From a virus (lineage: Duplodnaviria > Heunggongvirae > Uroviricota > Caudoviricetes), in the IMG/VR virus record IMGVR_UViG_3300029611_000001, positions 25,067 to 89,066 of that record: DNA of 64,000 bases. One strand, given 5' to 3'. Position numbers and translations under genes: made by a program. Under the pieces are notes generated by a model that had not been told where the DNA came from, did not search any database, and saw nothing but the letters and a program-made list of their open reading frames with translations. The stretch's first letter is position 1. The number at the start of each line of letters is the position of its first letter. Of this stretch, positions 14,920 to 64,000 are shown in pieces.

Positions 14920-17900
14920 ATGGTATCAACGTGTATTATTAAAAGAGATAATAAAAAGAAAGTTGTTTCTGTCTCTACCAGATCAGGGGACAGGTCTATG
15001 TTGTTTGATAAAATAGCATCTATTCCCCTTATGGAGAACAGGGAACGGGCTACTACTGTTTTTAAAACCGTATTTTCCAACAAGTTCTTAAAGGCTTTTG
15101 GCGACTGGAGAAAGAGAGTGCCTATCAACAAACAGGCTTATAATAAGGTAAAATCCAACATCGATCTTATCCCAGAAGCCTATAGAGAAAGGGTACTGGA
15201 TAAGGCTTCTAAGATGAGTAATCCTGTTCTTGTGTCAAAATCAGATGCACCTTATGAAATCCAAGAATCGGGCTTTGGATTTTACAGCCAAGATCTGGGT
15301 GATAATATTATGTTGGTAGATGCTATGGTCCCGTCAAGTATTTCCGTACCGGAAGGACCGGGAATAGACGCAGGGCAGTATCTACAAGATGCTATATCTT
15401 CGGACTTCACTCCCGTATCTATGGTACAGGATAAGGGTGTTAATTATATGGTTATAAAAGACGGTCTTAAGATATTTAGCCCAGAAGAGCTACCACAGAC
15501 AGATTCTAATCCTGTGGGTGTAACGTATCAGACCGGAGAGCCTCGTTTGTTTTTCATGAACGATCGTAGTCAATTATTTGAAGATTACGGAGAAGCTCTT
15601 CGCTCTGGCGGAAATGATATTAGAATAGGATTCTTATCAGGCACCGTTCAAGAATCTACCGTGGATGGCGTGGCAGACATTACTTACAAGGCTGGAAAGT
15701 ATGTTCTTAATAATCCCAAATCTTTTATACCGGTCATGACCGCTTCTGCTTCTACTTCTTTATCAACAAAAGGTGGTATAATTAACTACCTTATAAAGAA
15801 AGGTCTTTTGTCAGGATCTAAGATATTCGATCCGGAAACAAGAAGCTATTATCTTACAGGAGAAGGTCATACAGGACAAATTAGACTTTTCAATTCAGCC
15901 TTATCATACACCGAGCTCCGTAATCATTTTGGTTCCGATGTTTCCATGAACGACCAAGGTATGATAACCATAAGCTCGTTGGATAATAGTAATGTAACTA
16001 TGAGGCTCGCCACCGGAGGAACGGAAAGGGTTAGCAAAGAGCAGATAAAGAACGATCTTAAGTCAGGAAGATACAATGAATTGGACGCCAAGTACGATCA
16101 TTTTGATGCGCTTGTAGTTTCATTCATATTAGAAGACAACGATCTTTATGCTGATACTAAAGCTAAGATCGTATCAGATTATAGCAGGCAGGAACGTGAT
16201 CAACGAAATTCTATTGTCGAGATACTGAAAACTCTTGGCGTTAGTGTCATAGGTATGACCGATTATATAGAGAAGTACCAAACCAAATACGGGCACGAAC
16301 CTTCTGCTAAGGCATTGGCGGATATTGCCAATAATGTAATAGCAGTTGGTGAAGATGCTACTTTATCTGATTTAGTAGAAGAAACAGCCCACTTTCTTGT
16401 AGAGGCATACAGAGATCAGAATGCTGTTGAGGCTGTTCTGCAAGATGTAGAAGGTACGGAAGAGTGGAACCAGTATGCAGGTCAGTATTATAATACATAC
16501 GGTAAAGCGTATGAAGGAGCTGAGCTTGATAATGCTGTTAGGAGAGAAATTCTTGGAAAGATCCTCGCCAGGGAGATGCAGGCCGGCACAGCACAGGCGC
16601 CGGTAGAGCCCACCTCCTTCCTGGGGCGCGTCCGGCAGCTTTTCTCTGGAATCGTAAGCTGGCTTAAATCAGCTTTATCAACCCAAAGACAAGATTTGAA
16701 TAACGTTATTAAAAACATTCGTGATCTTGCCATTACTGACATAGATAAAGGATTTGACACCTCTCTGTTAAAGGATAATGACTTTACATTATACTCCCTT
16801 TCTTCTATGAACAAGAACAAGTTTCTTGAGTCTAAGATCAGATCACTAAGAAAAACATTAAGAGACTTACGTCAGATAAGCTCTGATAGGGCTGTAACTA
16901 CGTCTATGACCCTTGCGCAGCTTAAGACCATAGAAGATAAGATAAATAAGGTAGAGACCGAAATAGACAAGAATGAGATGGCGGCTGCCATGAACAGCAT
17001 GATCTCCACAGCCGAAGCTCAGGTCAGATACTTAAGCAATGTGGTGAACACCACCCTTCATGGTGATACCAAAGACGGCAAGCTTCACTTCAATACCAAT
17101 GATCGAAAGAACGTAGATATTATCAACAATCAGGTTCTTCCGATCATGAACGATCTTCGAGGATATATCCGTAACAGAAGTACCGAATTTGATGAACGTG
17201 AAAAGCAGGATTATACAAATAGGATCAACACCGTCATTGCCGACATCAATGGTATTCAGCCTGATATTAAATCAGTACAAGACCTTGATGAAAGTACGTT
17301 GCTTGATAAGTTAATGAACGAACTTCATGTGCCGGCAGATAAGGTAAAGAGAGTAAAAGAATTTTTCGACAAGGTTCAACACGATGTTTCTTGGATAAGT
17401 AGGTGGTTTGGTATATTAGAGCATTCTTCCAGTCCGTTCAATAACGCTCTTGGAGCTATGATTGCCAAAGACAATTACAATGCGATGGTGAATGCCCAGC
17501 CCGCCATATCCGATTTCCTGGCATATGCGAAAAAGCATGGTTTTAACAAATCTGAATTTGAAAAACTGCTTCAGAAAGTAGACGGAAAAACTTCTAATTA
17601 CCTTCGTAGTGCTCTTGATATGGCTAAATACGATCGTAATAAGAAGCTGGCGCAGATGCGAGCGTTTGCGACTGCCATGAACATAGAGATATCAGAAGAA
17701 GAAATTGGTGATGTGGTTGACAATAACCGTAATTACGTATTTAAAAGAGAAGTAGTTGACAAGGATGGAAATACGGTTACTGAAAACGCTAAATTCAAAC
17801 CATCGTCTGATAGGGTTAATACCGATATTTTTACCATCGAGCAGGAAAAGATCTATACGGAACAGATGGAAAAGTGGGATGCTGAAAATTCGGAACTGGA

Positions 17901-51405: not shown

Positions 51406-52317
51406 TTAATTAATTTGTGAATACCTTAATCGTCGTTTGGTATTCTGCAAAAATACATCGAATCTTTCAGATTCCGATAGATGTTTCGTGTTATATCTGA
51501 AAGATTCGCAATCTACATATCTTTGAAGATGTTTTCTCGACACCCAGAAATGGGTTCCAGAAATCATTTTCTTCAAATGGCTCCAATATCCTTCGATTGT
51601 GTTTGTTGATCTTCTGCCTATTACATACGCTCCCTTTTTGTGATATACTTTTTGATGATCAAACTTTTCTTTGTCGATCCCGTTATACGCATACCATTCG
51701 TCAGAATATATGGTAGAATTAGGATGAACGGTATTGTATATCAAAGGAAGTAAGGTTTTACCTTTTGTGTCTGTAACGACATAAGCGACAACAAATCCTT
51801 CTCGTTGGAGTGTCCCAAACACAGGGGTTTTATCTTTTAAAGATCTCCCCTGTGCATCTTTAACTTTATCCTTACTATGTCTATTCTTGTTTTTGCCACC
51901 AATATAAGTTTCATCCACTTCAATCTCGCCTTTCAAACACGGCTCTTTTATTTCAATACTAAAACAATTGTGAATACGTTGAAGCATAAACCAAGCCGTT
52001 TTCTGTGTTACTCCCACGATTTTAGACAACTGTAAAGATGATACTCCTCTTTTCATTTCAACAACAAAATAACAAGCCAACATCCATTTTCGTAATGAGA
52101 CTTTCGAATTTTCAAAAATCGTTCCTGTACGAACATTGAAGTATTTACCCGTGTTTTTACACTTGTACCTATTTCCTTTGCATTTATACACCTTAGATTC
52201 CGGATCAAAAGGAGAAACAACGTGATCTCCCCACCTTTCTTTTTCAAGAAAGGTTATACACGCTTGCTCATCAGGGAACAATTTTGAAAATTCGGGAAGT
52301 GATTTAAAATCGAACAT
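51406..52317 (-). mobile_element. IS1595-family (ISXO2-like DDE) transposase gene
   Basis: VEIDETYIGGKNKN and NTIEGYWSHLKKMI motifs; N-terminal zinc-binding region. Confidence 0.7.
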
Positions 52318-52485
52318 ACTTCTTATCTTTATATTGGATTATAAAAATACAAAAATATATTCATATAACCAACTAAAAATCAATTAAATTCATCGAATAT
52401 ATGATTTTGAATTATTTTTTTTTGTTGTTAAATTTCTAATTCTTTTCTATTTTTGAGGACTGTCTAACTTAATAATACTAATATC

Positions 52486-52863
52486 ATGGAAAATGGAAAA
52501 TGCTATGTTAAAGAAGTAATAGATTTTTCTATTAGAGAAATATCCTCTAATGAAAAAGTTATAATTTTTATTTGCGACACAAAACAACATGCAGAAGAAT
52601 TACTATCAAATATAAAGGAAAACGAAATAATTTACTTCCAAATGATAATAAACGACGGTAAAGTATCCTTTTTAATTAGACAGAGTAATCATCCCAATAT
52701 TGATATGATATATGAAACGGGTTATAAATATTCAGAATATAAACCATTTGAGTGGATTCTTAATAATCAAGTAAAATTCTTCTCTACTGGATATTATATT
52801 GATGACAAAAATACACTCGGTATAATTACAAATTACATTTGCTTGCCTCTACGAATCAAATAA
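52486..52863 (+). CDS. Hypothetical protein (125 aa), lone plus-strand gene in minus-strand block
   Basis: ORF. Confidence 0.45.
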   Translation: MENGKCYVKEVIDFSIREISSNEKVIIFICDTKQHAEELLSNIKENEIIYFQMIINDGKVSFLIRQSNHPNIDMIYETGYKYSEYKPFEWILNNQVKFFSTGYYIDDKNTLGIITNYICLPLRIK

Positions 52864-52987
52864 CATTCTCCTTTTTTATTAGGATGCTTCTTAAACGGAT
52901 CTTTTGGCAAATATATGTATTCATACTTATCAGTACATTTTTTTTGTTTCTCTAAATTAGATGAAGTGTTTTTTCTTTTTTCTTGTC

Positions 52988-53033
52988 TCATAATTTTAAC
53001 TTTTAAAAGTGAATAATTAATTGATTTATAAAA
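52988..53033 (-). repeat. Copy 2 of about 45-bp conserved element (TGAATAATTAATTGATTTATAAAAA)
   Basis: Matches 46664-46707; precedes a roughly 48-aa minus-strand ORF (ATG at 52988-90). Confidence 0.6.
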
Positions 53034-58986: not shown

Positions 58987-59220
58987 TTACAATACTTTTG
59001 TTCCGCAATTATTATATCTTCCGTACTCTTTTTTCGTATCATTCAAGATTTCAAAAACCATCTTCTTGTGATCTTCGTTTGGTAACCTATCCTTAACAGC
59101 CGATATTACGCCCGCTATAGACGTAAAGCCTGAATCTGTTATTGAACACAGCAACACACCTCTGTCGGCTCCGGTGCTTATTGCTGACGCCTTTATAATA
59201 TCATTCTTGTATATTCTCAT
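58987..59220 (-). CDS. Hypothetical protein (77 aa)
   Basis: ORF. Confidence 0.4.
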   Translation of the reverse strand: MRIYKNDIIKASAISTGADRGVLLCSITDSGFTSIAGVISAVKDRLPNEDHKKMVFEILNDTKKEYGRYNNCGTKVL

Positions 59221-59398
59221 AATCTTTCGTTTTATTATCTACAAACTTATCTATATCGTCTCTTATTCTTTTTAGCACTCCGGCTATAATTGTCGGCATT
59301 TCTCCTCCGGTACGGTTCAGAGTTTCTATCACCCCGTCAATCTTACCCATTTGACGCCATAAGAAATTGGCGTCTTTCGCATTAAATTCCCCCATCAT
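59201..59398 (-). CDS. Hypothetical protein (65 aa)
   Basis: ORF. Confidence 0.4.
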   Translation of the reverse strand: MMGEFNAKDANFLWRQMGKIDGVIETLNRTGGEMPTIIAGVLKRIRDDIDKFVDNKTKDYENIQE

Positions 59399-59475
59399 GT
59401 CTTATTTTACAGTAAACAACTTGCTTTTTTAAGCACCAGTCTTGCGATTCTGAGAGTGAACACCGTCCTGTGTTG

Positions 59476-59631
59476 TTAAAAAAATATACAATCTTTGCAG
59501 AACATAACAGGCTCTTCGTCGTCACTAACTACTTTGACCTCATACTCTATGCCATACAATTTTAATCTAAATACATCCCCTGCTTCTTTAGAAGACAAAT
59601 CCATGTTCGGACCGAATGTTATTACTTCCAT
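59476..59631 (-). CDS. Small hypothetical protein (51 aa, below ORF-track cutoff)
   Basis: ATG at 59629-31 (minus) to TAA at 59476-78. Confidence 0.3.
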   Translation of the reverse strand: MEVITFGPNMDLSSKEAGDVFRLKLYGIEYEVKVVSDDEEPVMFCKDCIFF

Positions 59632-59649
59632 ATAATTATGTTTTATTGT

Positions 59650-59745
59650 TTGTGAGATGCCCAGAATCGAACCAGGACCGGCACATACGCACCGGCACGC
59701 CGCGTCATCCCTCTATGATACAGAAATAGGCATGTCTATCCTCAC
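59650..59745 (-). tRNA. tRNA-like element: canonical T-arm (GGTTCGATTCT) and acceptor 3' strand; 5' half not resolvable by hand (possible tRNA gene, intron-containing tRNA or tRNA 3' fragment)
   Basis: Plus strand TGTGAGATGCCCAGAATCGAACCAGG is the reverse complement of a tRNA T-loop/acceptor end; sits in an intergenic gap; 8-bp perfect hairpin GGCATGTC...GACATGCC upstream. Confidence 0.4.
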
Positions 59746-59804
59746 GAACCGACATGCCAAAACCCAAAACTTAATTTGATGAATAAAATAGATTAACAAA
59801 AATA

Positions 59805-60119
59805 CTATTCTAATTCTTTTATAATATCTTTCACAATATTCAGCCTCACCTCCTTCGTTTCTGGACTAAGACAACCAAACCACCCATAAAACGTTCTTGT
59901 TTCCTCTGGTTCTGTGGCCATACTTATCTTCTCCTCCAATTCCGGGAAATATATTCTCACCATTTCGTCTGAACGAAACTCATATATATTTTTATGTGTT
60001 TTGAGATACATAAACACTACATTTCTTAACGCAACACATATGTATTCCCCATCCTCTAACCTATCAATCATCTCATATACCTTTTTCCATATGAATAATC
60101 GCTCTTCTTTTGTAAACAT
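59805..60119 (-). CDS. Hypothetical protein (104 aa)
   Basis: ORF. Confidence 0.5.
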   Translation of the reverse strand: MFTKEERLFIWKKVYEMIDRLEDGEYICVALRNVVFMYLKTHKNIYEFRSDEMVRIYFPELEEKISMATEPEETRTFYGWFGCLSPETKEVRLNIVKDIIKELE

Positions 60120-60133
60120 ATCCTTCTTTATTT

Positions 60134-60475
60134 TTATGGTATTATTTGACTGTATGCAGACTTTTCCATGTACACAACACTATGTTCCTGTCCAAGTATT
60201 TTCTTTGCTGCTTCTTTCTTTATCGCGCAATATCTCCCTGTACGATACGGATTCTTTTGATCTGATCCATCCTCGACTTCGATAATAAAACAACCTCCGT
60301 CATCTATTATCTTTTTGCAATTGTCACATATTTCTCCCGTGCATATATGATGCGGCGCCTGCCCTTTGATGTTATTCCCTAATAAAGCAATCCCCATCTC
60401 TTCGCCACATATCATGCAGACTTCTATAGACGGATTCAATCCGTGTTCTGGATGTAATGTAATACCATCTTTCAT
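60134..60475 (-). CDS. Zinc-ribbon protein (113 aa)
   Basis: CMICGEEM...CTGEICDNC. Confidence 0.5.
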   Translation of the reverse strand: MKDGITLHPEHGLNPSIEVCMICGEEMGIALLGNNIKGQAPHHICTGEICDNCKKIIDDGGCFIIEVEDGSDQKNPYRTGRYCAIKKEAAKKILGQEHSVVYMEKSAYSQIIP

Positions 60476-60876
60476 TTTCTTTCCTCCTTCATTAATTCTA
60501 TTATAAACTTTTTATCTTGTTCCCACAATGGCAGCCCTTCTTTTACTGTGTATGCCACTGTTTCCCTCTCTCCTATTAATCGCACGGCAATCTCTCTTGC
60601 TTTCAAGTCATCCTCCTCATGCGATTTATTTATTAAATCATAGGCACATGATTCCACCTTTTGCCTTTCGATTATTATCGAACCCATTAACTCGCTTATA
60701 TACGATCCTAAAAACGATAAGACATTAATAGCTTTCCCAATATCATTTGAAATAGCACTTGCTAAATACATCTTATCCATATACTCCGGCAAAGCCTCGT
60801 ATGCCGTTTCTATGTTTTTATACTGATTTTCGTTTACCTCCCTTTTAATCAGTTCTTCAAATTCTTCTTTTAACAT
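60472..60876 (-). CDS. Hypothetical protein (134 aa)
   Basis: ORF. Confidence 0.5.
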   Translation of the reverse strand: MLKEEFEELIKREVNENQYKNIETAYEALPEYMDKMYLASAISNDIGKAINVLSFLGSYISELMGSIIIERQKVESCAYDLINKSHEEDDLKAREIAVRLIGERETVAYTVKEGLPLWEQDKKFIIELMKEERK

Positions 60877-60898
60877 GTTCTTCCCTATTTTAATGTTG

Positions 60899-60990
60899 TG
60901 TGAGATCGCCGGAATCGAACCAGCCTACCGCACCATGAATCCCATAAAGCAAATGCTCCGATCTTCGCAGACGGGAGCATTCTGTCTAAA
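60899..60990 (-). tRNA. tRNA-like element with canonical T-arm (GGTTCGATTCC) and acceptor 3' strand; close paralog of the 59650 element
   Basis: Plus strand TGTGAGATCGCCGGAATCGAACCAGC; a possible acceptor partner TGGGATT lies only about 25 nt upstream, which would give a minihelix-like fold. Confidence 0.4.
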
Positions 60991-61459
60991 GCATAAGAAA
61001 ATTAATGAAGAAATTTTTCTCACTTACGCCATAGCATCTAAAATAGCTATCAGCACTATTTCTATGACAAACATAATAAAAAATATCTTAAATGCCTTTT
61101 TCATATCGCTATCTCCTCCTTCTTCTTTATGTTTATAGTTCTTCTATATAGGCCCTCTCCGGTCGTAATATTCTGTGCGCTTACACTAATACGAACACAG
61201 TCCTTTAACCAACTCGGTCTGTGTTTAAGCAATTCTTTAGCACTCGTTCTTAATATCATCTCTTTGGCATCTGATACCGGCATAGACCTGTTGCTTATTA
61301 GTCTACTACTTTTCGAACCTGTAGAAGATACCCAATTTATCCAAATATAATGTATTGTTCTTTCCATCTTTTTTCTTTTTACGTTCCACAATAAACTGTC
61401 CTGGCTCTGCTCCGACCTACGTTCCACCTACAACCGCAGGCCTTAGCCCAAGGCGCCGC

Positions 61460-61720
61460 CTACTCCCCCTCTATGGCAGCCTGTTCGTACCTACAAAGCC
61501 AGTCTCCATCTACACAACTATCACTACGCGATAATAAACATTTATCCTTATAACAATCATAAAAAATACACCTATCACAACTGTAATCCTTAACGTCTAC
61601 ACAGCTAACTACCTTAGCATATACTATACCATCACTGCCTTCTATTCCTTTCACCCCAAAAATAGAACCTTCTACCTCCTTACTCAAATCTAAGTCAGGC
61701 GCAAAATCATATACGTTCAT
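61460..61720 (-). CDS. Cys-rich hypothetical protein (86 aa)
   Basis: ORF; CDRCIFYDCYKDKC. Confidence 0.45.
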   Translation of the reverse strand: MNVYDFAPDLDLSKEVEGSIFGVKGIEGSDGIVYAKVVSCVDVKDYSCDRCIFYDCYKDKCLLSRSDSCVDGDWLCRYEQAAIEGE

Positions 61721-61760
61721 GTTGTTTATATTTTAATTGTTAAACATTTCACTTACTACC

Positions 61761-61935
61761 AGCCTATGGAATGATGTTTTAAAACGCTATCATACTTTAT
61801 TTTGTTGGAAAACCTACAGAATACTGTTTTAAAACGCTGTAAGTCTTAATTTTGTTGGAAAACCTACAGAATACTGTTTTAAAACGCTGTAAGTCTTAAT
61901 TTTGTTGGAAGAGAGTCTTAATTTTGTTGGAAGAG
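61761..61935. repeat. Tandem 50-bp iterons (about 3.5 copies; two perfect copies of AACCTACAGAATACTGTTTTAAAACGCTGTAAGTCTTAATTTTGTTGGAA, plus a 22-bp sub-repeat)
   Basis: Perfect copies at 61811-61860 and 61861-61910; degenerate copy at 61761-61810. Confidence 0.85.
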
Positions 61936-62140
61936 AGTGCCCTACCCCTCCCTCTCTCCAACTCCCGCTAATCCTCCGGCTTTCCGCATAGAACCCACGC
62001 CCTACCGCCTCACTACCGGCATACGGAGAGCGCTACAAGCTTATACTCTGGCATGAAGTGTGGGGTGTTTAGAGATAATATCATTCCATAGAGAGAATAG
62101 AGAGTCTTCAGCCCACGCCCTACCGCCTGCTCCTCCTATC
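61936..62140. ncRNA. GC-rich structured element with internal direct repeat CCCACGCCCTACCGCC (x2); candidate small RNA or origin structure
   Basis: Sharp local GC rise in an AT-rich non-coding region; repeats at about 61992 and 62112; ATCATTCCATAG at 62080 is the inverted partner of CTATGGAATGAT at 61764. Confidence 0.3.
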
Positions 62141-62657
62141 AAGATAGATATTCAGACCTATAATCAAAGCCAGAAACAAAAAGCAAAAAACCATCACGAT
62201 ATTATACTGATCTGGTCCGTACTCTAACATAGAACGGATACCAACCGATAAAAAATACAGGTCAGATACTAATAAAAACCACCACATAAAATAAAAAATT
62301 TACAATAAGTATGTCCGAAAATACGGGTATTATAAAACATAACTAATTGATAATCAAGCATACCTCATTTTTAAGAAAAATACAATAAGCCTGATTTTCA
62401 ATCTATAGAGATGAAAAAGGCGGCATCCGACACCCTATTTTGGGTCAGAAAACCGCCTCAAGTTTCGTTTTAGACCAATTTTAACGACATGATATAGACA
62501 AAATACCGGCATTATATCCAAACTATCCTATTTTAGTTTCGTTTTAGACCAATATGGCACATATCCGCCGTTCACTCTCAGAATACCTACCCGTAAATAG
62601 AAAGAGTAGGATACGAAAATAGGGCTGCTCCGACGTTCGGAACAACCCTACTCCTAT

Positions 62658-62864
62658 TTAAATGCTGTTTATGTTTTCCTTGACGTATGTTCGTGATGTA
62701 TGAACTTTACGCTTGCATTTGTCCTTTCCTGTATCGGCATGATACGCTTCTTTGAGATCACGATACAACATAAATTCACGATACGCTCTTTTCCGCTTTT
62801 CTTTAGCTTCTTTCCTGGACAGACCGCGAACGTCTACCATGTGAGATTTAAATTTCCTTTCCAT
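62658..62864 (-). CDS. Basic hypothetical protein (68 aa)
   Basis: ORF. Confidence 0.45.
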   Translation of the reverse strand: MERKFKSHMVDVRGLSRKEAKEKRKRAYREFMLYRDLKEAYHADTGKDKCKRKVHTSRTYVKENINSI

Positions 62865-62886
62865 TTTCTTTATGCTTTAATTATGA

Positions 62887-63057
62887 TTAACCCCAGCGGT
62901 TAAGTGCTTCAATATAGAAACCTTCCGCCTCTTTGTACTCACTTTCGCTTAGTGCTTCAACCGTCTCGATATAGTTACGCAATGTTATTTTTACGCAACT
63001 GTTTTTAGATTTATTGAACGCTTCAGTTAAAGCGTTGATCATTGCTTTCTTTCCCAT
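62887..63057 (-). CDS. Small hypothetical protein (start trimmed to MGKKAM)
   Basis: ORF 62887-63108 trimmed so it does not overlap the tRNA-like motif. Confidence 0.4.
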   Translation of the reverse strand: MGKKAMINALTEAFNKSKNSCVKITLRNYIETVEALSESEYKEAEGFYIEALNRWG

Positions 63058-63082
63058 GTTATTATATTGTTTATAATTTAGA

Positions 63083-63165
63083 GGTTGCTCCGGAATCGAA
63101 CCGAACACGCATTCCTATTCTATACGAATTTTATGCTACAACCAACAGCCCGTAATTAGTACGTA
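63083..63165 (-). tRNA. tRNA-like element with canonical T-arm (GGTTCGATTCC); possibly the 3' portion of a tRNA whose 5' part is separated by the structured region 63160-63640
   Basis: Plus strand AGGTTGCTCCGGAATCGAACCGAAC; a partial acceptor partner GGTTGTA lies about 55 nt upstream. Confidence 0.35.
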
Positions 63166-63640
63166 GTTCTTGTGTACAGGCCCGTACTATGTTGTTATTA
63201 TATTTTCCGTCTGCTACACAACTTAGCCACAAATAAAGGCGATTGTGTCCTTGCGTTTTGATACGGCACGTCCCTACATGGTAGGCTACATGCTTGTACC
63301 CTGTAATTTAATCTACAGCCTTGTTCTATTTTCCGTGTAAGCAAGTAAGACACGTTTCGATCTGGAGATAAACCGCGTACAAAGGTATGTCTTCCAAACT
63401 GTACCAACATACCTAACATGAACCACACCTATTCGGGTGATTCATGCAGTAATACCAGCCCTTTAATTGCCAACGGCAAGGGCAAAGGTATATCTATCTC
63501 CAATATGTAAAATAACTCTTTGCTTGTCAGCTTCGGTCTAAAGCATACGCGGGACGTGCACCCACTGACAACGGCATACAGGCGCGTTTAACGGTACGCG
63601 TCAAACCTTTGGAGAGCTTAACTGCGCTCTCCGTGCCTTG

Positions 63641-63964
63641 TTACTGCTGGTTGCTTTCATGTGCGAGGTATTCACTTACACACTTTGCGATGGTACGGAT
63701 TGAGTAAGAAGCGATTCGTGTCGCTACATAAGTAGCTCTATACTCGTCGGTTTCACGAGTGAGCCACTTTGCGCTGTTCTTACCTTCCAAAGGTTCGGGT
63801 GAAGCAAACCCAAAAGGTTTATACTCTTCACCGTAGGCGATATTTTTCACCTCTTTATTCTCGATACCTTTTTCCTTATTAACCTTACCATCTTTGTATA
63901 TTTTAGAATACAAGGTAAATTTTACGAAGGTATCGCCAACCTTTGGTAACATTTGGCTACACAC
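63641..63964 (-). CDS. Hypothetical protein (107 aa)
   Basis: ORF. Confidence 0.5.
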   Translation of the reverse strand: MCSQMLPKVGDTFVKFTLYSKIYKDGKVNKEKGIENKEVKNIAYGEEYKPFGFASPEPLEGKNSAKWLTRETDEYRATYVATRIASYSIRTIAKCVSEYLAHESNQQ

Positions 63965-64000
63965 GGCTACCAGGCGTTTTTTATCTTTAGCGAGAGATGC

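What the first reader, a model, noticed from the sequence alone, without database searches (positions are those of the whole stretch)
61730..62660. 0.9-kb non-coding locus with 50-bp tandem iterons, long-range inverted repeats, a GC-rich repeat-bearing element and duplicated TTTCGTTTTAGACCAAT motif
About 3.5 tandem copies of a 50-bp unit lie at 61761-61935. CTATGGAATGAT at 61764 and its reverse complement at 62080 bracket the iterons and a GC-rich block, which contains CCCACGCCCTACCGCC twice. TTTCGTTTTAGACCAAT occurs twice about 73 bp apart (62462 and 62535). An A-rich tract lies at 62141-62300. Iterons next to an AT-rich tract and protein-binding repeats is the classic look of a replication origin. 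A packaging site or a cluster of regulatory small RNAs are alternatives. The locus sits between tRNA-like elements.
Basis: seen in the sequence. Interest (0 to 1): 0.65.

Follow-up and report, generated by a model that had tools for sequence, protein, structure and literature searches.

The report
Phage genome-end region, not an origin
This 0.9-kb stretch of a crAss-like gut phage is a patchwork (a variable minisatellite, a GC-rich spacer, a tiny membrane-protein gene, two terminators and a conserved repeat module), and the repeat module sits where a published read-start analysis of a 93%-identical phage places the genome end, so part of it is more likely a DNA-packaging or terminus site than a replication origin.

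Summary
The locus is not one non-coding element, and an origin is the weaker reading.

- **A-rich tract:** it is the antisense of a conserved 55-codon two-helix membrane-protein gene (62120-62287, minus strand).
- **50-bp "iterons":** they are a hypervariable minisatellite, with 1 to more than 10 units among more than 85%-identical relatives. 24 public contigs break inside it.
- **Long-range inverted repeat:** its left arm is found in only 4 of 92 relatives, so it is probably chance.
- **GC-rich block:** it is neither coding nor a conserved RNA structure.
- **Two hairpin+T terminators on the gene-sense strand:** they bracket the two 19-bp repeats, which occur only here in the 151-kb genome.
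- **Invariant 16-mer GTTCACTCTCAGAATA:** the GenBank record of the close relative crAssE-Sib starts inside it (window 62576|62577). Its authors set that start with PhageTerm (p = 1.5e-22).
- **Whole-genome GC skew:** its extremes lie at the gene-orientation switches, about 18 kb and 40 kb from the locus.

Best reading: an inter-operon boundary that carries the packaging/terminus site (confidence about 0.5). An early non-coding RNA and an origin remain as rivals. Interest is modest.

The parts
61763..61935 (.). Hypervariable minisatellite: three ~50-bp units, each with the palindrome GTTTTAAAAC, plus two 22-bp sub-units. It lies 43 bp upstream of the ATG (61720) of the next minus-strand gene.
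   Evidence: Relatives carry 1 to more than 10 units of ~50 and ~20 bp, and the flanking-anchor distance ranges 380-816 bp. 24 true contig ends of public assemblies fall at 61742-61944.
61937..62119 (-). GC-rich spacer or 3'UTR, G-rich on the gene-sense strand. It has a length-polymorphic CT/GA-rich tract at 61937-61975 and one copy of the 17-mer at 61994-62010. Function unknown.
   Evidence: Variable sites show no 3-periodicity, 23/28/25. Single-sequence fold z is +1.4 (minus) and +0.2 (plus). Alignment fold z is -0.7 and +1.3. The only G-quadruplex motif of the window (loops up to 12) is 61966-61940 on the minus strand, and it is not kept in Sib.
62120..62287 (-). Gene for a 55-aa protein with two hydrophobic helices (MWWFLLVSDLYFLSVGI...IVMVFCFLFLALIIGLNIYL-DRRSRR). 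Its antisense strand is the 'A-rich tract'. Its last codons and stop form the second 17-mer copy (62112-62128).
   Evidence: The ORF is intact at exactly 55 aa in all 59 unique relatives. Variable sites by codon position are 15/5/27. Hydropathy shows two peaks. A CDS is annotated in crAssE-Sib. No Pfam or PHROG family matches.
62288..62413 (-). AT-rich leader of the small gene, with a sigma-70-like TTGATT-17-TATAAT at 62357-62329. Promoter use is not shown.
   Evidence: 10 of 12 matches; the number of promoter-like sites in the region equals the shuffle expectation. AT content is 74-78%.
62414..62457 (-). Intrinsic-terminator-like hairpin (GGCGG...CCGCC followed by TTTTT) on the gene-sense strand.
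   Evidence: Pairs are kept in 46 haplotypes, with one compensatory A-U to G-C change in 6 sequences.
62461..62553 (.). Two exact 19-bp direct repeats AGTTTCGTTTTAGACCAAT (62461-79 and 62535-53), 74 bp start to start (about 7 helical turns), around a conserved spacer. Proposed recognition module of the packaging site.
   Evidence: These are the only two copies in the 151-kb relative, even allowing 4 mismatches. They are nearly invariant in relatives while flanks vary. They are kept in the PNK-anchored relatives L225 and L226.
62570..62585 (.). Invariant block GTTCACTCTCAGAATA. The crAssE-Sib record ends at window 62576 and starts at 62577 (GTTCACT|CTCAGAATA), which is the PhageTerm-predicted genome start.
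   Evidence: for the mapping. PMC11054128 for PhageTerm. It is the longest fully invariant non-coding run among 59 unique relatives.
62613..62657 (-). Strong intrinsic terminator (13-17-bp stem followed by a T-run) ending the upstream minus-strand operon, directly after the stop of the 68-aa ORF 62658-62864.
   Evidence: all substitutions keep pairing, and many give G-U pairs that are valid only on the minus strand. Alignment fold z is -8.1 on the minus strand and -2.6 on the plus strand.

Best explanation
The interval is a composite boundary between two early, minus-strand transcription units of an epsilon crAss-like phage. It is not a single element.

**Right-hand third (62414-62657): proposed genome terminus / packaging-initiation site.**
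- The upstream operon ends in a strong terminator.
- About 35 bp further on lies an invariant 16-bp block in which the virion DNA end was mapped in a close relative.
- 17 and 91 bp beyond that block lie two identical 19-bp repeats on the same face of the helix. They are the only copies in the genome.
- A second terminator-like hairpin follows.
- Proposed mechanism (inferred): the small terminase subunit recognises the paired 19-bp repeats, and the large subunit cuts at GTTCACT|CTCAGAAT to start packaging (pac type) or to define a fixed end (short-DTR type). The flanking terminators keep transcription from running across the end.

**The rest is separate.**
- A real gene for a 55-aa membrane protein.
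- Its GC-rich, unstructured downstream spacer.
- A slippage-prone minisatellite in the leader of the next gene. Its copy number drifts between strains, and it breaks short-read assemblies.

**Shown:** the repeats, the gene, the terminators, the conservation and uniqueness of the module, and the coordinate match with the published start.

**Inferred:** that the published start is a true terminase cut, and that the 19-mers are what the terminase recognises.
For: - **Terminus:** the crAssE-Sib record (93% identical) is collinear with the window across its own end and start, and its position 1 equals window 62577. The authors state that the start was predicted by PhageTerm, p = 1.5e-22, on a NEBNext ligation library of virion DNA (PMC11054128).
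- **Conservation:** the block around the cut is invariant in 59 of 59 unique relatives and is the longest invariant non-coding run.
- **Uniqueness:** the 19-mers occur only twice in the whole genome and are conserved while their flanks vary.
- **Terminators:** both hairpins are kept through G-U and compensatory changes, and are far stronger on the gene-sense strand.
- **Precedent:** both short DTR and pac headful packaging are documented in crAss-like phages (PMC6235969 and PMC8042965).
- **Small gene:**
- **Minisatellite variability and assembly breaks:**
Against: - The terminus rests on one sentence of one paper about a metagenome-assembled relative. No packaging type, strand or second terminus is given, and I could not see the reads.
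- None of 34 mapped contig ends falls at 62540-62620. This is expected for pac or DTR genomes that assemble as circles, but it gives no independent support.
- The site is about 20 kb from the terminase genes, unlike classical P22- or SPP1-type pac sites.
- Nothing shows that any protein binds the 19-mers.
- The explanation gives no function to the GC-rich block or the minisatellite.
Confidence: 0.5

Rival explanations
1. **Early non-coding RNA or regulatory leader.** The region is transcribed on the minus strand, from downstream of the first terminator through the small gene, the G-rich block and the minisatellite, or as a short RNA ending at the second terminator. The RNA, or its repeated motifs, acts as a regulator or protein sponge. 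The model is the abundant early long non-coding RNAs made from long intergenic regions of the crAss-like phage phi14:2.
For: - phi14:2 makes two very abundant early lncRNAs of unknown function from long early-region intergenic gaps, and its early promoters share no motif (bioRxiv 10.1101/2020.03.07.982082).
- All neighbouring genes are on the minus strand, and terminators on that strand delimit a unit of about 200 nt.
- No terminator separates the small gene from the GC block and the array.
- Conserved tRNA-like RNA modules lie in the neighbouring gaps.
Against: - No Rfam family matches, even at E up to 10.
- The GC block shows no structure signal, either alone or in the alignment.
- No recognisable promoter: the Bacteroidetes -7 motif is absent from the minus strand of the gap.
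- There are no expression data.
- A 17-mer of the repeat forms no CRISPR-like array in 185,579 species genomes, so it is not a repeat mimic.
Confidence: 0.2
2. **Replication origin.** The tandem units, the paired 19-mers or both are initiator-binding iterons, and an adjacent AT-rich stretch melts.
For: - Direct repeats are present and exceed chance.
- The 55-bp spacer between the 19-mers and the 62250-62400 stretch are AT-rich.
- The locus is unique in the genome.
- Origins near genome ends are known in other phages (own knowledge).
Against: - The A-rich tract is coding.
- Unit number and type are not conserved.
- There are no DnaA boxes.
- No initiator-like neighbour is found.
- The replication genes lie more than 20 kb away.
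- The skew extremes are at 17.7 and 110.7 kb in Sib coordinates, not at the locus.
- The AT-richest part of the locus ranks only 9th in the window.
Confidence: 0.1
3. **Operator or centromere-like protein-binding array.** The ~50-bp units, each carrying the palindrome GTTTTAAAAC, are repeated binding sites for a dimeric DNA-binding protein. That protein would be a regulator of the downstream early genes or a partition protein, as in sopC of plasmid F.
For: - A 10-bp perfect palindrome recurs at 50-bp spacing directly upstream of a gene.
- Copy-number variation is tolerated in known centromere arrays (own knowledge).
Against: - Some relatives have no copy of the exact palindrome.
- No ParA- or ParB-like protein is found. 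The only nearby ATPases are a coiled-coil protein and an SMC-like protein.
- No DNA-binding domain is detected in the neighbouring small proteins.
Confidence: 0.1

Closest known systems
pac sites of headful-packaging phages (SPP1 pacL/pacC/pacR, P22 pac, P1 pac). Among crAss-like phages, the pac-type packaging predicted for crAss002.
   Same: A unique cis site combines short repeated recognition sequences with a nearby cut that appears as one read-start peak. Pac packaging has been predicted for a crAss-like phage (PMC8042965).
   Different: Classical pac sites lie in or next to the small-terminase gene, whereas this site is about 20 kb from it. Binding and cutting have not been shown here. 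The sequences share no similarity.
Short direct-terminal-repeat ends (T7/T3 concatemer junction; the 576-bp DTR of crAss001)
   Same: The genome end lies in a gene-poor regulatory region at the head of an early transcription unit, with arrays of short repeats beside it. A crAss-like precedent exists (PMC6235969).
   Different: No terminal redundancy can be demonstrated from sequence alone, and the Sib record carries no repeat at its two ends. The tandem array lies about 640 bp from the mapped end.
Iteron-type origins (lambda ori; plasmid Rep origins)
   Same: Tandem direct repeats sit close to AT-rich DNA.
   Different: The repeats are not fixed in number or sequence. The AT-rich tract is a gene. 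There is no initiator gene, no DnaA box and no skew signal.
Early long non-coding RNAs of crAss-like phage phi14:2
   Same: Long gene-free gaps lie among small early genes of a crAss-like phage, on the early strand.
   Different: Only the phi14:2 RNAs have been observed. No sequence or structural similarity was tested or is known. Here there is no expression evidence.

Membership tests
Iteron-type replication origin | An array of direct repeats with conserved number and sequence among close relatives | tested here: not met
   Relatives carry 1 to more than 10 units, with mixed 50-bp and ~20-bp unit types. The anchor-to-anchor length ranges 380-816 bp in relatives that are more than 85% identical.
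Iteron-type replication origin | An adjacent non-coding AT-rich unwinding element | tested here: not met
   The A-rich tract 62141-62300 is the antisense of a conserved 55-codon gene. The remaining AT-rich stretch is unexceptional, ranking 9th in the window.
Iteron-type replication origin | An initiator gene next to or around the repeats, or host DnaA boxes | tested here: not met
   The neighbouring proteins have no Pfam or PHROG assignment. No DnaA box with up to 1 mismatch is found. Novel initiators cannot be excluded.
Iteron-type replication origin | A strand-composition (GC skew) inflection at the site | tested here: not met
   The cumulative skew minimum is at 17,716 and the maximum at 110,658 in the complete relative, while the locus is at about 150.4-151.3 kb. 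Skew follows gene orientation here, so this test is weak.
Terminase recognition / genome terminus (pac, cos or DTR boundary) | A physical DNA end in virions, seen as a pile-up of read starts | not testable with these tools
   The literature reports it for the 93%-identical crAssE-Sib (PhageTerm, p = 1.5e-22; PMC11054128). I verified only that this start maps to window 62577.
Terminase recognition / genome terminus (pac, cos or DTR boundary) | A single-copy cis site, conserved among relatives | tested here: met
   The 19-mers occur only twice in the 151-kb genome. The 16-bp block at the cut is invariant in 59 of 59 unique relatives.
Terminase recognition / genome terminus (pac, cos or DTR boundary) | Binding and cleavage by the phage terminase | not testable with these tools
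   This needs biochemistry or genetics.
Terminase recognition / genome terminus (pac, cos or DTR boundary) | Location in or beside the small-terminase gene (P22/SPP1-type pac only) | tested here: not met
   The terminase genes lie at 20.1-23.2 kb of the Sib record, about 20 kb away. This feature does not define DTR or cos types.
Rho-independent terminators (62613-62657 and 62414-62457, minus strand) | A GC-rich hairpin followed by a U-run, with pairing kept in relatives | tested here: met
   (G-U and one-sided changes, plus one compensatory pair). The strand asymmetry in alignment fold z is -8.1 against -2.6.
Known RNA families (Rfam 15) and tRNA genes | A covariance-model or ARAGORN match | tested here: not met
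   There are no hits at gathering score in the window. There are none of relevance at E up to 10 in 59000-64000. ARAGORN finds 0 tRNA or tmRNA genes.
CRISPR mini-array / solitary repeat unit | The repeat matches a host CRISPR repeat and has repeat-spacer geometry | tested here: not met
   The repeat is only 19 nt with a 55-nt spacer. A 17-mer of the repeat forms no array in any of 185,579 species genomes. The 67 hits are at the chance level and include a conserved Flavobacterium coding sequence.
Protein-coding gene (62120-62287) | An ORF kept intact, with substitutions concentrated at third codon positions | tested here: met
   The ORF is 55 aa in all relatives, with 15/5/27 variable sites by codon position.

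The most novel reading that the evidence does not exclude
The gene-free gaps of this early region, including the G-rich block and the strain-variable tandem array, are transcribed into abundant early non-coding RNAs like those of phi14:2. The repeated units would act as a decoy or sponge for a host or phage nucleic-acid-binding factor, with copy number evolving rapidly between strains. The neighbouring gaps end in conserved tRNA-like acceptor/T-arm modules. These could be processing or CCA-addition signals tied to the phage's own CCA-adding enzyme, polynucleotide kinase-phosphatase and Ro60 homologue.
Probability: 0.1. Interest if true: 0.7.

Novelty: new member of a known kind. Interest (0 to 1): 0.3.

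Why it matters
- If the terminus assignment holds, it gives epsilon crAss-like phages, an abundant and uncultured gut group, a defined genome end and a candidate packaging signal: two 19-bp repeats plus a 16-bp cut block.
- That would help in orienting genomes, in judging the completeness of assemblies and in any future engineering.
- The locus explains a practical artefact. The minisatellite 640 bp away is where many public assemblies of this phage group break, and it could mimic terminal repeats.
- The minisatellite is also a ready-made marker for strain typing.
- It is a cautionary case: 'iterons next to an A-rich tract' turned out to be a variable minisatellite next to a small gene read on the other strand.

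Tried and rejected
- **Rfam:** gathering and E up to 10 gave nothing relevant.
- **ARAGORN:** no tRNA genes.
- **GC block as structured RNA:** rejected, with z near 0 or positive in both single-sequence and alignment folds.
- **GC block as coding:** rejected, no codon periodicity.
- **Presence/absence polymorphism of the 118-nt unit between the 17-mers:** rejected. The unit is always present. Loci showing one copy simply carry a diverged first copy.
- **Conserved G-quadruplex:** the only such motif in the window lies here, but it is not kept in Sib.
- **Long-range inverted repeat as a functional bracket:** rejected (4 of 92 relatives).
- **Prophage junction or attP:** the 17-mer scan of 185,579 species genomes returned only chance-level hits plus one mis-binned phage contig.
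- **CRISPR-repeat mimic:** rejected by the same scan.
- **Partition system:** no ParA or ParB.
- **Bacteroidetes promoter motifs:** TAnnTTTG occurs only on the plus strand inside the repeat units, without a properly spaced -33 element.
- **More distant relatives:** relatives anchored on the kinase-phosphatase gene were still 81-95% identical at the DNA level. They added no deep comparative power.
- **Contig ends as evidence of physical termini:** they cluster in the minisatellite, not at the PhageTerm site, and are best read as assembly breaks.
- **First literature search:** the search for 'csAssE' was wasted. The spelling 'crAssE-Sib' found the paper.

Full report
**Context**

- The window comes from a large human-gut phage. 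Its only close match in the phage collection is crAssE-Sib, deposited as 'csAssE-Sib' (OR575929, 151,256 bp). Identity is about 93% over the region, and it is classed as an epsilon crAss-like phage (PMC11054128).
- A 2,148-aa virion protein of the crAss-type RNA-polymerase family and helicase and exonuclease genes fit that assignment.
- All genes around the finding are small ORFs on the minus strand.
- In the complete relative, the minus-strand block runs 110,888 to 151,256, wraps to 1, and continues to 17,367. The finding therefore sits inside that block, about 17 kb from the divergent switch, and there is no change of gene orientation at the locus.

Those I tested against shuffles far exceed chance.
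- Three corrections are needed.
  - The interval is not wholly non-coding.
  - The 12-15-nt inverted repeat is no better than many others in the region, and its left arm exists in only 4 of 92 relatives.
  - There are no tRNA genes nearby, although tRNA-like T-arm modules do exist (see the section on things seen in passing).

**Dissection, reading the minus (gene-sense) strand from 62660 down**

1. **First terminator.** The stop codon of the 68-aa ORF is followed directly by a 13-17-bp hairpin and a T-run (62657-62613). In 46 haplotypes every substitution keeps pairing. Many create G-U pairs, which are possible only on this strand. With column shuffles, the alignment folds at z = -8.1 on the minus strand against -2.6 on the plus strand. 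This is a transcription terminator.
2. **Invariant block.** About 30 nt further lies GTTCACTCTCAGAATA (62570-62585, plus-strand notation). It is the longest fully invariant non-coding run among 59 unique relatives.
3. **The 19-bp repeats.** Two exact 19-bp repeats follow, 74 bp apart. Their spacer is well conserved, while the sequence between the second repeat and the invariant block varies freely. The repeats are the only two copies in the whole 151-kb genome, even allowing 4 mismatches.
4. **Second hairpin.** A second hairpin plus T5 (62457-62414) follows, with one compensatory pair.
5. **Small gene.** An AT-rich leader precedes a 55-codon ORF (62287-62120).
   - The ORF is intact and exactly 55 aa in all relatives.
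   - Variable sites number 15/5/27 at codon positions 1/2/3.
   - It encodes two hydrophobic helices and a basic tail.
   - Its T-rich codons explain the 49% A on the plus strand.
6. **GC-rich block (62119-61937).**
   - It has no codon periodicity.
   - It shows no folding signal, alone or in an alignment of 71 sequences.
   - The second 17-mer copy is the end of the small gene. The first copy is a non-coding duplicate that is replaced by a diverged version in many relatives.
7. **Tandem array (61935-61763).**
   - It is a true minisatellite. Relatives that are otherwise more than 85% identical carry from 1 to more than 10 units of two size classes.
   - 24 true contig ends of public assemblies fall inside it, scattered over 200 bp. 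That is the signature of assembly breakage at a repeat rather than of a physical end.

**Evidence bearing on function**

- *Published genome start.* This is the most informative single fact. The authors of crAssE-Sib obtained a pseudo-circular contig from a virion-DNA, ligation-based library. They set the record's first base with PhageTerm (p = 1.5e-22).
- *Mapping of that start.* The window aligns without interruption across the end and start of that record, and position 1 corresponds to window 62577, in the middle of the invariant block.
- *Layout.* Terminators flank the module, so no transcription unit crosses it. That is what one would expect at a fixed genome end, though this step is inference.
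- *Precedent.* Both short terminal repeats (crAss001) and pac-type headful packaging (crAss002) have been reported in crAss-like phages.

**Tests of the origin reading**

- The cumulative GC-skew extremes of the complete relative lie at the two gene-orientation switches (17,716 and 110,658), not at the locus. Skew here tracks transcription, so this carries limited weight.
- The locus has no DnaA box.
- It has no exceptional AT-rich non-coding tract.
- No recognisable initiator lies nearby.
- The repeat number is not conserved.
- I therefore rate an origin at about 0.1.

**Tests of the RNA reading**

- No known RNA family matches, and the GC block is unstructured.
- However, the crAss-like phage phi14:2 makes very abundant early non-coding RNAs from long intergenic gaps in its early region, and their function is unknown.
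- Without expression data this reading stays open, at about 0.2.

**Other ideas**

A CRISPR-repeat mimic, an attachment site and a partition centromere each failed a direct test.

**Verdict**

- The finding is a real but composite locus.
- Its right-hand third is best explained as the genome terminus or packaging-initiation site of the phage. This is a known kind of element, newly located for this phage group.
- That assignment depends on one published software prediction that I could not re-examine.
- The left-hand two-thirds are a small gene, an unexplained GC-rich spacer and a hypervariable minisatellite.
Its packaging-site alternative is.

**Seen in passing**

- *tRNA-like modules.* Three conserved modules lie on the minus strand in the neighbouring gaps, each 25-40 nt upstream of the next ORF.
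  - Each has an acceptor-like stem and a GGTTCGATTCC T-arm. There is no D-arm, and a mini-hairpin replaces the anticodon arm.
  - The module at 63143-63083 shows compensatory changes in two stems.
  - ARAGORN and Rfam miss all three.
- *RNA-handling genes.* The relative encodes a Ro60 homologue, a CCA-adding/poly(A) polymerase-like enzyme and a polynucleotide kinase-phosphatase.
- I did not pursue whether these features are connected.

Noticed in passing
window 59713-59651, ~60940-60897, 63143-63083 (minus strand): Three conserved tRNA-like modules lie here. Each has a 6-7-bp acceptor-like stem, a short hairpin and a canonical GGTTCGATTCC T-arm, with no D-arm and no anticodon loop. Each ends 25-40 nt before the ATG of the next ORF. 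ARAGORN and Rfam do not call them. The third shows compensatory changes in the T-stem (C-G to U-A) and in the mini-stem (U-A to C-G) among relatives. They may be processing or CCA-addition signals, or Y-RNA-like elements.
   Followed up: partly
window 63075-63640 (minus strand): This ~555-nt GC-rich stretch is free of ORFs and ends in the third tRNA-like module. It folds better than all 100 shuffles (z = -2.9) and matches no Rfam family. It is a candidate large structured RNA.
   Followed up: partly
relative OR575929: 73,091-74,725; 137,063-137,725; 3,537-4,409; 2,615-3,571: The close relative encodes a Ro60-related protein next to tRNA-Tyr and tRNA-Lys, a poly(A)/CCA-adding polymerase, a polynucleotide kinase-3'-phosphatase and an NrnA-like phosphodiesterase. 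Together these form an RNA-repair or RNA-quality-control gene set. It also carries a DGR and two TnpB genes.
   Followed up: no
window 59447-59461 (and 62570-62584): The 15-mer at the mapped terminus, GTTCACTCTCAGAAT, also occurs once in inverted orientation 3.1 kb away. That copy lies inside a small CDS (codons ...CSLSES...) and is conserved in the relative. It may be chance, with roughly 0.01-0.02 such pairs expected in 5 kb, or it may be a second recognition site.
   Followed up: partly
window 59382-59631 versus 61460-61720 (minus strand): The 86-aa protein just downstream of the locus is a paralogue of the protein encoded at 59631-59201. They share a Cys-rich ...C..C.F...C.LS.S...DW.C motif. 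In the window this second gene is broken by a T7-versus-T6 run and a 4-nt indel. In crAssE-Sib it is one 142-aa ORF.
   Followed up: partly
window 61108-61372: A 265-bp segment carrying an 88-aa ORF (MERTIHYIW...) is present in the window but replaced by about 18 bp in crAssE-Sib. This is a presence/absence polymorphism of a small gene.
   Followed up: no
window ~22,900 and 52,000-53,000: The sign of the GC skew flips at about 22.9 kb, where plus-strand structural genes meet the minus-strand block (the convergent switch and cumulative skew maximum). The interval 52-53 kb has the lowest GC of the window (27.5%) and holds its AT-richest 150-nt stretch (84% AT at 52,304).
   Followed up: no
loci L156-L222 (bacterial genomes): The 17-mer TTTCGTTTTAGACCAAT occurs in about 30 Flavobacterium species inside one conserved protein-coding gene, and in several Chryseobacterium species at a second conserved site. 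This is a coincidence of sequence, not a related element. L189, a 3.9-kb contig binned as Veillonella, is actually this phage.
   Followed up: yes
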